Shown here: in pieces, positions 30,501 through 33,089 of the stretch
Layout: each line of letters opens with the position of its first letter
How positions within the stretch are numbered: position 1 is the first letter of the stretch
Origin: Octopus sinensis
Taxonomy: Eukaryota
DNA length: 64,000 nt
Assembly: GCF_006345805.1 (NCBI RefSeq)
Contig: NC_043017.1
Coordinates: 30,318,001-30,382,000 of the forward strand
Direction: 5' to 3'
Position numbers: made by a program

Positions 30501-33089
30501 GTGATCGATAATTATTATCGATCAGCGTATTTTTATTTATTTATTTATTTATTTAAGGTTATGATTTTCTGTGTGAAAACATTTGAATATTATAGAAACG
30601 ACCACAAAAGAAGCATCGATTGTTTCTTTGTCTTGTTTTGTTTTGTCTTCTGTTGTTTTTTTTATATTTTTCATGATAGAGATTTTTACAAGAAAGTGTT
30701 CGGAGAAAATGAGAGAATATGCAAAGTGTAGAGTGAGTCGCAGAGAAAGGGATTTAAAGAGAGAGGGAGAGGTGGTGAGAGATAGAGAGACACTGAGAGG
30801 GGGGAAGTGAGAGAAGAAAACATATTAAAGACAAAAGCAGACACAGTATCTTAAAGCTTTTTACTGCTGCTGATGATAGCGCTGCAGTTGTTTTAGCATT
30901 TATTATCCTGTTTTTTGCTTTGTTTTAGGTTTGTTATTAGCAACAAGGATAATTGTTTTATAGCGACATTAGCCATGAACAGGAAAAAAAAGTGATTACG
31001 TGAAGAGACTATTTATGACGTTGGTTAGCTACTGTCTTTACGAGCGTTTGACAATCGCTGCAACAACAAGAATAACAACAGCCAAACGTGAATAAATACA
31101 TAAAGATGAATAAATAAAATATTTTTTTCTTGAAAAAAAAAAAAAAATGGTGTGAAAATCTATATTAGATTGCAAAACAAAAATATATTTTCTTTAAAGA
31201 AAAAAAAAAACAAAAAATAAACGAAGAAAAAATTACTATCAAAAGATCGAAACCGCAACACATTAAATTATAAAGAAAACCCCCACAAAGATAAGAAACA
31301 AATTATAAATAAAACATTACAAAAATAATACAACAAGGAAAACTGGCCGGATTAAAGCTTGCTCGACTTATTTGTACATTCAGCTCATTATACTGAAGTT
31401 GGTCGACGCAGTAAAACGATTAATCAAATGATTTTATTGTTAGTATTTAGTAAACTAGAAGACACAGCTGAATTCATTGAGAAACAAATAAACAGATGAA
31501 TACATGTTTAGTAATGTATGATAGGTAAGAAGCTGGAGAAGGTTATATAACAAATGTTCTCAAAGAATTACAATATATTACAATTCTAAGTTTTAAGCGC
31601 ATTGCCTCTGCTGCAGAATTAGAGAGTTTCATTAATTTATTTGAAATATGGTCATTGTTTTATTCTGTCTTAGCAAATGTTTGAGTTACGTATATTCTTT
31701 CCTTTTATTGGTTTCAGTCTTTGAACCACTCTGAAGTTGGTGCATTGGGTTGAAGTGGTTTTAATTTTGCATATTCGTTTATAGCACTCCAAACTGTATG
31801 TGCGGTGTAATATCATCATTTTCAAAGGGCACGGGTGATAAATGAACTTGGGGAGATAATTGCGCAGAATTAAATACTGCTGTGCATTTCTATATGCGTA
31901 TACAGATCTCATCCAAGTCGAGTATATATATATATATATATATATATATACTACAAAATTAGAGAATGGAGAAACATACTTAAATCAATAAAACATCAAC
32001 TATCCGATGATACCCAATCAATACTTTAATACACCATTACATATGAGTAAAGGCATTATATAAAATGAGATATACAGTAATAGTAAAAAGATAAAGAGAT
32101 ATAAGTAAAAAATTTCAAATATAATATGCAATTAAATCAAAACTGACAGCTGTTTCGGCAGTGAGGGCAGTCATACCTCATTTAACCTCTTAGCCATAAA
32201 GGCAGGTATAAATGAGGCATTAACAAGGATGCCCCACGGCCTCTTCAGAGAATTAAATTAAATTTGTTATAATTGCGAAAAATATAATATAACCATATAC
32301 ATATAAATATAAAAATATAAAAATGTAAAATATAAAAATATAAAAACTTATACATCATAATGCTACACTTATATAATATAATACTTATTGGTACAATAAA
32401 GGAAGGTAAACAGAACAAAATAAAACAAAATATATATCAGTGTATTTTGTTCTGTTTACCTTCCTTTATTGTACCAATAAGTATTATATTATATAAGTGT
32501 AGCATTATGATGTATAAGTTTTTATATTTTTATATTTTACATTTTTATATTTTTATATTTATATGTATATGGTTATATTATATTTTTCACAATTATAACA
32601 AATTTAATTTAATTCTCTGAAGAGGCCGTGGGGCATCCTTGTTAATGCCTCATTTATACCTGCCTTTATGGCTAAGAGGTTAAATGAGGTATGACTGCCC
32701 TCACTGCCGAAACAGCTGTCAGTTTTGATTTAATTGCATATTATATTTGAAAATTTTTTACTTATATCTCTTTATCTTTTTACTATTACTGTATATCTCA
32801 TTTTATATAATGCCTTACTCATATGTAATGGTGTATTAAAGTATTGATTGGGTATCATCGGATAGTTGATGCTTTATTGATTTAAGTATGTTTCTCCATT
32901 CTCTAATTTTGTAGTATTAATTTACGGTAATATTATTACCTTTACCCATATAATACAATAGATGAACTGATTGTTTGACAATTTTTAACATCTATGTATT
33001 AATCTTGTTGGGTACCTATCTGGCAGTATATTGGATATATATTATCCCATGGTGGGTTGAATTTTCAACCCCTATCTCATTTTATAACC

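What the first reader, a model, noticed from the sequence alone, without database searches (positions are those of the whole stretch)
31948..33089. 1-kb DNA palindrome carrying two outward-facing hammerhead ribozymes with an 85-nt stem II
Seen: 475-bp arms with only a few differences, a 20-bp spacer, a one-sided ~170-bp tail, (TA)n on both flanks and no coding capacity. Each arm carries CTGAAGA-[85-nt hairpin]-GAAA-cagctg-TC. Established: Penelope-like elements carry minimal type I HHRs in their terminal repeats and often insert with an inverted 5' segment. Inference: this is a young non-autonomous PLE-derived fold-back ribozyme element. A read-through transcript from either strand would carry one sense ribozyme plus its full antisense copy, so self-cleavage would compete with a ~475-bp dsRNA hairpin. 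That hairpin is a potential ADAR or Dicer substrate in an animal group known for heavy A-to-I editing.
Basis: partly seen in the sequence, partly recalled or inferred. Interest (0 to 1): 0.85.

Follow-up and report, generated by a model that had tools for sequence, protein, structure and literature searches.

The report
Palindromic retroelement insertion carrying hammerhead ribozymes
The 1-kb palindrome is a real, young, non-coding mobile-element insertion made of two head-to-head copies of a short unit that carries an unusually long-stemmed hammerhead ribozyme, and three sister insertions nearby show this is how the element family normally lands in (TA)n repeats.

Summary
The arms are 475 nt (2 mismatches, 2 one-base indels), with a 20-nt spacer, a 172-nt one-sided tail, (TA)n on both flanks and no credible ORF. 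Each arm carries CTGAAGA-[85-nt hairpin]-GAAA-CAGCTG-TC facing outward.

A strict hammerhead descriptor found 5 hits in the window; 0 of 300 shuffles gave a hit with an 8-nt palindrome. This uncovered three further insertions. E2 (41734-42322) is a second palindrome with outward ribozymes and a one-sided 157-nt tail. E3 (38552-38839) is a single 5'-truncated copy. E4 (56800-57104) holds two inverted pieces with different truncation points. All four sit in (TA)n.

Helix II is 54-85 nt in all variants and keeps pairing through compensatory changes. The 8-nt palindrome ACANNUGU forms an intermolecular helix III in cofolds. No Rfam hammerhead model detects any variant.

The best reading is a non-autonomous element mobilised by Penelope-like machinery. 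Both strands of a (TA)n target prime reverse transcription, one from the RNA 3' end and one from an internal UA-rich site. This gives inverted copies with a one-sided tail.

It is not a distinct fold-back element and not an assembly artefact. No RT/GIY-YIG partner, cleavage or editing could be tested. It is a new variant of a known kind.

The parts
31923..31950 (.). E1 left (TA)n flank (half of the target microsatellite)
31948..32422 (-). E1 left arm: tail-less unit copy, with the RNA sense on the minus strand and its 3' end pointing outward
32145..32248 (-). E1 left hammerhead (CUGAAGA ... GAAACAGCUGUC), identical to the right one
32423..32442 (.). E1 20-nt spacer at the palindrome centre. 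It begins with a near-copy of the inner end of the left arm.
32443..32917 (+). E1 right arm (the part of the unit copy shared with the left arm)
32617..32720 (+). E1 right hammerhead. The core is C3-A9 at 32617-32623, helix II is 32624-32708 (85 nt), GAA is 32709-32711, the palindrome ACAGCUGU is 32712-32719 and C17 is 32720. Predicted cleavage is between 32720 and 32721.
32918..33089 (+). E1 one-sided 172-nt tail (3' end of the unit; moderately structured, z = -3.1). It starts with a TA-rich patch.
33090..33115 (.). E1 right (TA)n flank
41734..41941 (-). E2 left arm (tail-less copy) with an intact hammerhead at 41792-41864 (-)
41942..41955 (.). E2 14-nt spacer
41956..42165 (+). E2 right arm with an intact hammerhead at 42033-42106 (+). 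The palindrome is ACACGUGU and H17 = A.
42166..42322 (+). E2 one-sided 157-nt tail, followed by (TA)n at 42323-42361. The upstream (TA)n is 41672-41735.
38552..38839 (-). E3: a single, tail-bearing, 5'-truncated copy (69% identical to E2 over 259 nt) with an intact hammerhead at 38753-38825 (-). The core is CUGAUGA and the palindrome ACAUAUGU. It lies between TA-rich tracts.
56800..56976 (-). E4 left piece: a tail-bearing copy covering only E2-unit positions 195-367 (93% identical), abutting (TA)n at 56782-56800
56972..57104 (+). E4 right piece: a tail-less copy covering E2-unit positions 84-215 (94% identical). Its hammerhead is truncated inside the CUGA box; the 3' box is at 57027-57039. It abuts (TA)n at 57105-57146.

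Best explanation
The locus is one insertion of a short (about 650 nt) non-coding retroelement unit. The RNA of this unit carries a type I hammerhead ribozyme with a very long helix II (85 nt here, 54-55 nt in sister families) and an 8-nt palindromic helix III box, so the ribozyme can only assemble as a dimer. The unit was most likely mobilised in trans by a Penelope-like (RT + GIY-YIG) enzyme that cuts both strands of a (TA)n microsatellite and extends both 3' ends. One cDNA starts at the RNA 3' end and carries the tail. The other starts at an internal UA-rich patch about 160-170 nt upstream and is tail-less. The two cDNAs grow toward each other and are joined head to head. When both run to the same 5' end, the result is a near-perfect palindrome with outward-facing ribozymes and a one-sided tail (E1, E2). 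When they stop at different points, the result is an asymmetric inverted pair (E4). When only one strand primes, the result is a single copy (E3). Shown here: the anatomy, its recurrence, the (TA)n targeting, variable 5' truncation, conservation and covariation of the ribozyme, and the dimer-compatible fold. Inferred: the identity of the enzyme, the two start sites, the joining step and actual self-cleavage. In the inserted palindrome the two ribozymes are on opposite strands, so no single transcript has two sense copies. A full read-through RNA would instead form a perfect hairpin of about 475 bp.
For: Anatomy of E1. Hammerhead: all core positions are present, helix II is closed by G10.1-C11.1 and H17 is present. 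The strict descriptor gave 5 hits, and 0 of 300 shuffles gave a hit with an 8-nt palindrome. There are three independent sequence variants (E1, E2/E4, E3). RNAalifold on 4 sequences gave 17 helix II pairs, 4 of them with compensatory double changes. The E1 helix II has an unrelated sequence but the same architecture. The cofold MFE forms the 8-bp intermolecular helix III in 3 of 3 variants, with ddG of -7.1, -11.7 and -7.4 kcal/mol. Core-open folds keep helix I (10, 13 and 15 pairs) and helix II, at 4.3, 3.6 and 1.6 kcal/mol above the MFE. Retroelement signature: 7 unit copies lie in 4 insertions, with 5' ends at 5 different positions but shared 3' ends. In 3 of 3 double insertions, exactly one copy has the tail. 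The tail-less copies of E2 and E4 end within about 6 nt of each other. The arm-end window of E1 resembles those of E3 (2 of 1000 shuffles reach the score) and E2 (34 of 1000). The E4 pieces overlap by only about 20 nt, with 4-6 nt of junction microhomology, which is the pattern of priming on both strands. Target: 6 of 8 outer boundaries abut perfect (TA)>=6 tracts and the other 2 abut imperfect TA tracts, while such tracts cover 4.0% of the window. Literature: PLE hammerheads have long helix II, a palindromic helix III and act as dimers, and pairs on opposite strands 100-700 bp apart were seen in Schistosoma (PMC4209133). PLE insertions show 5' truncation, an adjacent inverted copy, a one-sided tail and (TA)n bias (PMC8557442 passages). 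A purified PLE protein cleaves and extends both strands and starts reverse transcription at two internal sites that define the tail (PMC11167929 passages).
Against: No RT or GIY-YIG ORF was found in the window. That rests on 0 of 23 ORFs tested, out of 199 stop-to-stop ORFs of at least 75 aa, so the screen was not exhaustive. The tails here are 157-172 nt, against the 30-40 nt described for PLEs. No direct (pLTR-like) repeat is present. Rfam hammerhead models give no hit even at E <= 10. [quoted passage not shown] E1 is not demonstrably homologous to E2/E3 over the whole unit: 190 of 200 and 84 of 200 shuffles score at least as high. Its link to them therefore rests on architecture and one short block. 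The exact symmetry of E1 and E2 fits a snap-back of one cDNA equally well. None of the 7 copies starts at the predicted cleavage site, so nothing here shows that the ribozyme ever cut. Published PLE min-HHRs cleave poorly in vitro.
Confidence: 0.7

Rival explanations
1. The element and enzyme are the same, but the perfect palindromes (E1, E2) arise by snap-back. A single cDNA folds back on itself at its 3' end and copies itself. The resulting hairpin is fixed as an inverted duplication, and the copy-back strand joins the (TA)n target at the internal TA-rich patch.
For: The arms meet within 14-20 nt of perfect symmetry in 2 of 2 palindromes, although 5' ends in the family are otherwise variable. 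The E1 spacer begins with a near-copy of the inner end of the left arm, and this 9-nt motif is complementary to the start of the right arm, so a fold-back primer site exists (sequence). The tails begin with TA-rich patches that could anneal to (TA)n.
Against: E4 cannot be made by snap-back. Its inverted piece covers unit positions 84-215, which are upstream of the 5' end (position 195) of its partner. A simple fold-back at the E1 motif would give a 10-nt loop without the extra 10 nt that are observed. I found no convincing fold-back microhomology at the E2 centre.
Confidence: 0.3
2. The units are non-LTR retrozymes. They would be transcribed from tandem arrays, self-cleaved by the hammerhead, circularised, and reverse-transcribed from the circular RNA.
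For: The units are short and AT-rich, non-coding, and carry a type I hammerhead that needs dimers, as described for animal retrozymes including a mussel (PMC7229834 passages). A 2026 preprint argues that such retrozymes derive from PLE pLTRs (abstract and passages).
Against: There is no tandem arrangement: only inverted or single copies occur in the window. In 0 of 7 copies does an end coincide with the cleavage site. No copy shows the permuted junction expected from a circular template.
Confidence: 0.15
3. The hammerhead-like module no longer cleaves, or never did. The long GC-rich hairpin and the boxes would be kept for another reason, for example as a protein- or RT-binding structure or a transcription signal.
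For: Helix II is far longer than in any hammerhead described in the papers I read, where stem II is commonly 2-8 bp. There is no Rfam hit. No copy starts at the cleavage site. In a purified PLE system, mutating the ribozyme did not affect insertion.
Against: All 11 invariant core positions, G10.1-C11.1, A15.1-U16.1 and H17 are intact in 5 of 5 full-length motifs from three families that are 69% identical or unalignable elsewhere. The 8-nt palindrome changes sequence (CAGCUG, CACGUG, CAUAUG) but stays a palindrome.
Confidence: 0.2
4. It is a fold-back or MITE-type DNA transposon with long terminal inverted repeats and a TA target-site duplication.
For: The inverted repeats are long and near-perfect, the flanks are TA, and there is no ORF.
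Against: The outer ends, tail included, are not inverted repeats: 13, 12 and 10 of 30 positions are identical in E1, E2 and E4. The structure is asymmetric, with a one-sided tail. Relatives occur as a single-orientation 5'-truncated copy (E3) and as unequal inverted pieces (E4) that share the 3' end. That is a reverse-transcription signature, not a cut-and-paste one.
Confidence: 0.04
5. It is an assembly or sequencing artefact, for example a chimeric fold-back read.
For: Palindromes are a known artefact class. Both arm indels are homopolymer-length differences, which could be read errors.
Against: The palindrome is internal, lies between unique flanks and is asymmetric. A second palindrome from a different sequence family has the same logic (one-sided tail, (TA)n flanks) 9 kb away, and a third locus has the asymmetric version. 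Published PLE insertions have this architecture.
Confidence: 0.03

Closest known systems
Minimal/dimeric type I hammerheads of Penelope-like elements (Cervera & de la Pena 2014, PMC4209133; reviewed in PMC6765202)
   Same: Both have the type I topology, a full consensus core, G10.1-C11.1 and a helix II longer than canonical. Both have a helix III reduced to a palindrome that pairs between two copies, and both sit in a retroelement. Pairs on opposite strands 100-700 bp apart were already noted in Schistosoma.
   Different: Helix II here is 54-85 nt (an 11-13 bp basal stem plus a distal domain), against 6-8 bp. [quoted passage not shown] The palindrome is 8 nt. The carrier is a short non-coding unit rather than the pLTR of an RT/EN-coding element. 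No Rfam model detects the motif.
PLE insertion architecture (Craig et al. 2021, PMC8557442; PAc in vitro study 2024, PMC11167929)
   Same: Both show variable 5' truncation, an adjacent inverted 5'-truncated copy, an extension ('tail') at one end only and insertion into (TA)n. The enzyme extends both strands and has two RT start sites.
   Different: The tail here is 157-172 nt, not 30-40 nt. There is no pLTR or tandem part and no ORF. The start sites here coincide with UA-rich patches that could pair with the (TA)n target, whereas PAc initiates at sites not homologous to the target.
Animal non-LTR retrozymes (Cervera & de la Pena 2020, PMC7229834; Li, Clavereau & Pollet 2026 preprint)
   Same: Both are short, AT-rich, non-autonomous units with a type I hammerhead that needs dimers. 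A proposed PLE origin applies to both.
   Different: Retrozymes are defined by tandem repeats and circular RNAs. Here there are no tandems and no ends at the cleavage site.
Twin priming of LINE-1 (5' inversions; recalled from Ostertag & Kazazian 2001, no call)
   Same: In both, the second-strand nick primes internally on the RNA, giving an inverted 5' segment joined by microhomology. E4 fits this exactly.
   Different: L1 twin priming gives non-overlapping inverted segments. E1 and E2 are full overlapping duplicates, that is, palindromes.
Schistosome SINE-like hammerhead elements (Sm-alpha/Sj-alpha, as summarised in PMC6765202)
   Same: Both are short non-autonomous retroposons that carry a hammerhead.
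   Different: The schistosome elements have a Pol III promoter and a canonical short-stem ribozyme. Here there is no tRNA-like module (0 tRNAs) and helix II is long.

Membership tests
Hammerhead ribozyme, type I | Conserved core C3 U4 G5 A6 N7 G8 A9 / G12 A13 A14 / A15.1-U16.1 / H17 in type I order | tested here: met
   The core is present in 5 of 5 full motifs (E1 x2, E2 x2, E3). N7 = A, A, U and H17 = C, A, C.
Hammerhead ribozyme, type I | Helix II closed by G10.1-C11.1 and supported by covariation | tested here: met
   A G-C closing pair is present in all variants. Of 17 alifold pairs, 4 show compensatory double changes across E2/E3/E4. E1 has an unrelated sequence with the same stem. Only 3 independent variants were available, so the statistics are thin.
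Hammerhead ribozyme, type I | Helix I formed by the 5' and 3' flanks | tested here: inconclusive
   Core-open folds give 10, 13 and 15 flank pairs, and the unconstrained MFE contains helix I in E1 and E3. The flanks are AU-rich, the register in E2 is ambiguous, and no shuffle control was run for helix I alone.
Hammerhead ribozyme, type I | Match to curated covariance models (Rfam hammerhead families) | tested here: not met
   There were 0 gathering-score hits in the window. No hammerhead hit appeared at E <= 10 in 31800-33200 or 38500-42400. The 54-85-nt helix II is a likely reason.
Hammerhead ribozyme, type I | Site-specific self-cleavage 3' of H17 | not testable with these tools
   This needs in vitro transcription. 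None of the 7 genomic copies begins at the predicted site.
PLE min-HHR (Cervera & de la Pena 2014) | Palindromic 15.2-16.2 / loop 3 allowing a dimeric helix III | tested here: met
   The boxes are ACAGCUGU, ACACGUGU and ACAUAUGU. An intermolecular 8-bp helix forms in the MFE dimer of 3 of 3 variants.
PLE min-HHR (Cervera & de la Pena 2014) | Unpaired nucleotide between A9 and G10.1 | tested here: not met
   G10.1 follows A9 directly and pairs with C11.1 in all variants.
PLE min-HHR (Cervera & de la Pena 2014) | Location in the pLTR of an element encoding RT and GIY-YIG EN | tested here: not met
   The units have no ORF. No RT or GIY-YIG domain was found in the 23 window ORFs tested. The rest of the genome could not be searched.
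Penelope-like element insertion | Variable 5' truncation with a common 3' end | tested here: met
   The 5' ends lie at 5 positions among 7 copies. E2, E3 and E4 share the 3' tail.
Penelope-like element insertion | Adjacent inverted 5'-truncated copy and an extension (tail) at one end only | tested here: met
   Three of 4 insertions are inverted pairs, each with exactly one tail-bearing copy. The tail length (157-172 nt) exceeds the published 30-40 nt.
Penelope-like element insertion | Microsatellite, typically (TA)n, target | tested here: met
   Four of 4 insertions lie in TA tracts. Six of 8 boundaries abut perfect (TA)>=6, which covers 4.0% of the window.
Non-LTR retrozyme | Head-to-tail tandem repeats, each with a hammerhead | tested here: not met
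   No direct unit repeats were found; there are only inverted or single copies.
Non-LTR retrozyme | Circular RNA intermediates | not testable with these tools
   No expression data were available.
Fold-back / MITE DNA transposon | Terminal inverted repeats at both outer ends | tested here: not met
   Identical positions at the outer ends number 13, 12 and 10 of 30 in E1, E2 and E4.

The most novel reading that the evidence does not exclude
These units represent a large, so far undescribed class of mollusc (probably octopus) mini-retroelements that target (TA)n. Their dimeric hammerheads carry a 54-85-nt helix II and are invisible to Rfam models and to the usual stem/loop descriptors. If so, reports that some (TA)n-targeting PLE clades lack hammerheads (only 'half cores' 35-50 nt apart were noted in Naiads) may partly reflect detection limits. 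Their habit of landing as twin-primed perfect palindromes would also seed the genome with ready-made long dsRNA hairpins. These could feed ADAR editing or small-RNA pathways in an animal group known for heavy editing.
Probability: 0.2. Interest if true: 0.75.

Novelty: new variant of a known kind. Interest (0 to 1): 0.5.

Why it matters
There are three reasons.

First, it extends the known shape of natural hammerheads. Three sequence-unrelated variants keep a perfect core, an 8-nt dimerisation palindrome and a helix II roughly ten times the usual length. All three escape the standard models, so genome surveys may be undercounting ribozymes.

Second, four insertions in one window give a compact natural record of how a Penelope-type enzyme integrates. 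Both strands appear to prime, there are two start sites and the tail is one-sided. This matches and extends the only in vitro study.

Third, the by-product is a perfect 475-bp inverted repeat. Any read-through transcript of it becomes long dsRNA, which is relevant to RNA editing and silencing if the host is indeed a cephalopod.

Tried and rejected
Rfam: there were no gathering-score hits in the whole window. No hammerhead hit appeared at E <= 10 around E1 or around E2/E3. The sub-threshold miRNA-family hits at the palindrome centres (mir-784 at 41.5 bits, MIR847 at 70.8 bits) are what any perfect hairpin gives, and I dismissed them.

The seventh hit, at 14147-14159, has no CUGANGA box upstream and is spurious.

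Homology of E1 to E2/E3: MAFFT could not place E1 in register. Whole-unit local alignment scores are not above shuffles (190 of 200 and 84 of 200 shuffles reach them). Only the arm-end block is suggestive (2 of 1000 and 34 of 1000).

Other copies of E1: blastn of the element against the window found only itself, its inverted arm and AT-rich low-complexity matches.

Autonomous partner: Pfam on 23 ORFs gave no RT or GIY-YIG. The only relevant hit was HTH_48 of a Mos1-type transposase, at 20 bits, below the 24.1 cutoff. Another 176 of the 199 ORFs of at least 75 aa were not scanned.

Host: two LINE-remnant ORFs were searched, and one of them was also put through the Atlas. The only named hit was one Octopus bimaculoides UniRef entry (65% identity over 41% of the query). 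The top Atlas cluster was 'commonest Mollusca', with phylum known for only 2 members. This is weak, and the host is not established.

tRNA/SINE head: there were 0 tRNA genes.

Junction mechanics: I looked for fold-back microhomology at the E1 and E2 centres by reading. E1 has a 9-nt candidate but leaves 10 nt unexplained, and E2 has none that is convincing. This is unresolved.

Literature: Lunse, Weinberg & Breaker (RNA Biol, PMC5785218) is not held; I saw only its title in reference lists. I found no description of hammerheads with a 50-85-nt helix II, nor of hammerhead-bearing short elements in cephalopods, in searches. 'Hammerhead' occurs 0 times in the two cephalopod repeat papers. These searches cover only the held library, so this does not show that such descriptions are absent from print.

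Supplements are closed. Supplementary file S1 of PMC8557442 (HHR_core / HHR_half_core lists) and the supplementary figures of PMC4209133 may hold similar variants.

I built no covariance model, and I did not use structure prediction, fold search, complex prediction or search_dna_similar, because they do not bear on a non-coding animal repeat.
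Full report
1. THE OBSERVATION

The left arm is 31948-32422 and the right arm 32443-32917. They align over 474 columns with 2 mismatches and 2 one-base indels, both in short A runs (sequence; repeats). The spacer is 20 nt (32423-32442).

A 172-nt segment (32918-33089) exists only on the right. Perfect (TA)n tracts abut both ends, at 31923-31950 and 33090-33115. Only one ATG-ORF of at least 40 aa overlaps the element, and it is a low-complexity reading across the centre.

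Each arm carries CTGAAGA, an 85-nt segment, then GAAACAGCTGTC, at 32617-32720 (+) and 32145-32248 (-). The two motifs are identical and point outward. The 85-nt segment is an exceptionally stable hairpin: -40.7 kcal/mol, z = -6.55, with 0 of 200 shuffles as good. It is more stable on the ribozyme-sense strand than on the antisense (-34.0), as expected if G-U pairs are used.

2. IS THE HAMMERHEAD MORE THAN CHANCE?

Rfam also sees nothing. There were 0 hits at gathering score in the window, and no hammerhead family at E <= 10 around the locus.

I therefore wrote a descriptor from the published features of PLE hammerheads (PMC4209133; I read parts 1-2 of 4). It requires:
- the CUGANGA box;
- a helix II closed by G10.1-C11.1;
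- GAA;
- a palindrome running from A15.1 to U16.1;
- H17.

It gave 5 hits in the window. Across 300 dinucleotide-preserving shuffles, 0 had any hit with an 8-nt palindrome, and 5 had a hit with any palindrome of at least 2 nt. Two of the hits are the finding. Three are new: 42033-42106 (+), 41792-41864 (-) and 38753-38825 (-).

3. THREE SISTER INSERTIONS

E2 (41734-42322) repeats the architecture with a different sequence. From left to right it has (TA)n at 41672-41735, a 208-nt left arm, a 14-nt spacer, a 210-nt right arm, a tail present only on the right (42166-42322, 157 nt), and (TA)n at 42323-42361. The arms differ by 1 mismatch and 2 one-base indels. The two hammerheads again face outward.

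E3 (38552-38839, minus strand) is a single copy. It is 69% identical to the E2 unit over 259 nt. It is truncated about 14 nt upstream of an intact hammerhead, carries the tail, and lies between TA-rich tracts.

E4 (56800-57104) is 93-94% identical to E2 and consists of two inverted pieces. The left piece, with minus-strand sense, holds only unit positions 195-367, the tail part. The right piece holds positions 84-215, so its hammerhead is cut inside the CUGA box, and it ends without a tail. The pieces overlap by about 20 nt and meet at a 4-6 nt microhomology. Perfect (TA)n tracts abut both ends.

Altogether there are 7 unit copies in 4 insertions:
- The 5' ends fall at 5 different positions.
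- The 3' ends are of two kinds only, with tail or without.
- Each of the 3 double insertions has exactly one copy of each kind.
- The tail-less copies of E2 and E4 end within about 6 nt of each other.

The 50-nt window around the E1 arm end resembles the equivalent windows of E3 (2 of 1000 shuffles reach the score) and E2 (34 of 1000). E1 as a whole, however, is not significantly similar to E2 or E3: 190 of 200 and 84 of 200 shuffles score as high. E1 is therefore tied to the others by architecture and one short block, not by overall sequence.

4. THE RIBOZYME ACROSS VARIANTS

All core positions are intact in 5 of 5 complete motifs. N7 is A, A or U, and H17 is C, A or C. Helix II is 85 nt in E1, 54-55 nt in E2 and 54 nt in E3. 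It has a basal stem of 11-13 pairs interrupted by one mismatch or bulge.

RNAalifold on E2R, E2L, E3 and E4R predicts 17 helix II pairs, 4 of which keep pairing through changes on both sides. E1 uses an unrelated sequence for the same stem.

The box after GAA is always an 8-nt palindrome, ACANNUGU, with CAGCUG, CACGUG or CAUAUG inside. In cofolds of two copies, the minimum-energy dimer forms this 8-bp intermolecular helix in 3 of 3 variants, at 7.1, 11.7 and 7.4 kcal/mol below two monomers.

With the core held unpaired, helix I (10, 13 and 15 pairs) and helix II both form, at 4.3, 3.6 and 1.6 kcal/mol above the unconstrained optimum. The helix I register in E2 is ambiguous, and the flanks are AU-rich, so I treat helix I as plausible but not proven.

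This is the dimer-dependent design reported for PLE and other metazoan type I hammerheads. It departs from that design in two ways. Helix II is about ten times longer than the usual 2-8 bp, and the bulged nucleotide before 10.1 is missing. Rfam also misses E2 and E3.

5. WHAT KIND OF ELEMENT

The variable 5' ends with fixed 3' ends are a reverse-transcription signature. The outer ends are not inverted repeats (10-13 of 30 positions identical), which argues against a MITE or fold-back DNA transposon. There is no tRNA-like head.

All 4 insertions are in TA tracts. Six of 8 boundaries touch perfect (TA)>=6, which covers only 4.0% of the window.

Passages of Craig et al. 2021 (PMC8557442) list exactly this set for Penelope-like elements:
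- strong 5' truncation;
- an inverted 5'-truncated copy next to the element;
- a 30-40-bp tail at one end only;
- a (TA)n preference in Neptune, Naiad and Hydra clades;
- hammerheads near the 3' end.

Passages of the 2024 in vitro study (PMC11167929) add three points. A purified PLE protein cleaves and extends both target strands. It starts reverse transcription at two sites, and the interval between them is the tail. Ribozyme cleavage is not needed for insertion.

The loci here fit this mechanism. One strand primes at the unit 3' end and the other at an internal site 157-172 nt upstream. In all three families that internal site is the start of a TA-rich patch that could pair with the (TA)n target (read). 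E4 is the classical outcome of priming on both strands with different stop points. It resembles L1 twin priming, which I recall from the literature and did not verify in any call.

For E1 and E2, both copies end within 14-20 nt of each other. Either both cDNAs ran to a defined RNA 5' end, or a single cDNA snapped back. E1 has a 9-nt self-complementary motif at the centre, but 10 nt remain unexplained, and I cannot decide between the two with one window.

Points against simple PLE membership:
- The tail is about five times longer than published.
- There is no direct (pLTR) repeat.
- There is no ORF.
- No RT or GIY-YIG was found in the window (0 of 23 ORFs tested out of 199 candidates).

The units are therefore best called non-autonomous, PLE-type elements. 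They differ from animal retrozymes in lacking tandem repeats. None of the 7 copies has an end at the cleavage site.

6. CONSEQUENCES OF THE PALINDROME

The two ribozymes lie on opposite strands, so one transcript never holds two sense copies and the dimer cannot form in cis. A full read-through RNA of E1 folds at -753.2 kcal/mol, with 474 of 485 nucleotides of the first half paired to the second. For E2 the value is -357.9, with 205 of 212 paired. The right unit transcribed alone keeps helix II in its optimum fold.

Transcription, editing and dicing remain untested.

7. HOST AND CONTEXT

The window is 35% GC and has 96 (TA)>=6 tracts. It contains remnants of LINEs and a mariner.

The only named protein hit is from Octopus bimaculoides (65% identity over 41% of a LINE fragment). 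The top Atlas cluster is labelled Mollusca on 2 members. This is compatible with a cephalopod but does not establish one.

Two cephalopod repeat papers report Penelope-like families and hundreds of unclassified SINE families in octopus, and neither mentions hammerheads (passages).

8. VERDICT

It should be reframed, though: the palindrome is the routine product of integration primed on both strands, not a separate fold-back element.

What is new is the long-helix-II hammerhead class that standard models miss, the 157-172-nt tail, and a tidy series of four insertions that documents the integration mechanism.

Scores: novelty is 'new variant of a known kind'; interest is 0.5; confidence in the main explanation is 0.7.

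Still unchecked: the rest of the genome, any autonomous partner, ribozyme activity, expression, and the closed supplementary files that may list similar motifs.

Noticed in passing
window 452-741, 17794-18231, 25731-26009, 41520-41665, 55490-55928, 58844-59194: A repeated short element recurs at least six times. It is recognisable by similar pseudo-ORF translations and a GC-rich head. One copy ends directly at the (TA)n tract upstream of E2. It is probably an abundant SINE-like family of the host.
   Followed up: no
window 45459-46126 (-): This is a remnant of a mariner/Mos1-type transposase. It has a sub-threshold HTH_48 hit (20 bits against a cutoff of 24.1) and, by my reading of the translation, a C-terminal transposase-like motif.
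   Followed up: partly
window 53164-54570 (-) and 27825-28100 (-): These are LINE remnants. The first hits RVT_1-containing proteins (E = 1.5e-33). The second hits 52 proteins, several of which carry AP-endonuclease plus RT domains. None is a PLE.
   Followed up: partly
window 4674-5858: This stretch is open in all six frames. It has GC 0.47, GC skew +0.59 and AT skew -0.51, so it is a long GT-rich simple repeat.
   Followed up: no
window 21584-21994 (-): This is a minisatellite. A 14-codon unit repeats about six times in the translation, which corresponds to a 42-bp tandem repeat.
   Followed up: no
window 32381-32484 and 41873-42024: The centres of both palindromes give sub-threshold matches to several miRNA precursor families in Rfam (for example 41.5 and 70.8 bits, against cutoffs of 94 and 184). 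These are generic hairpin matches, but they are a reminder that such loci could yield hairpin-derived small RNAs.
   Followed up: partly
whole window: Microsatellite density is very high. There are 96 perfect (TA)>=6 tracts (4.0% of the bases), plus many CA/GT and TC-type runs that create long spurious ORFs.
   Followed up: partly
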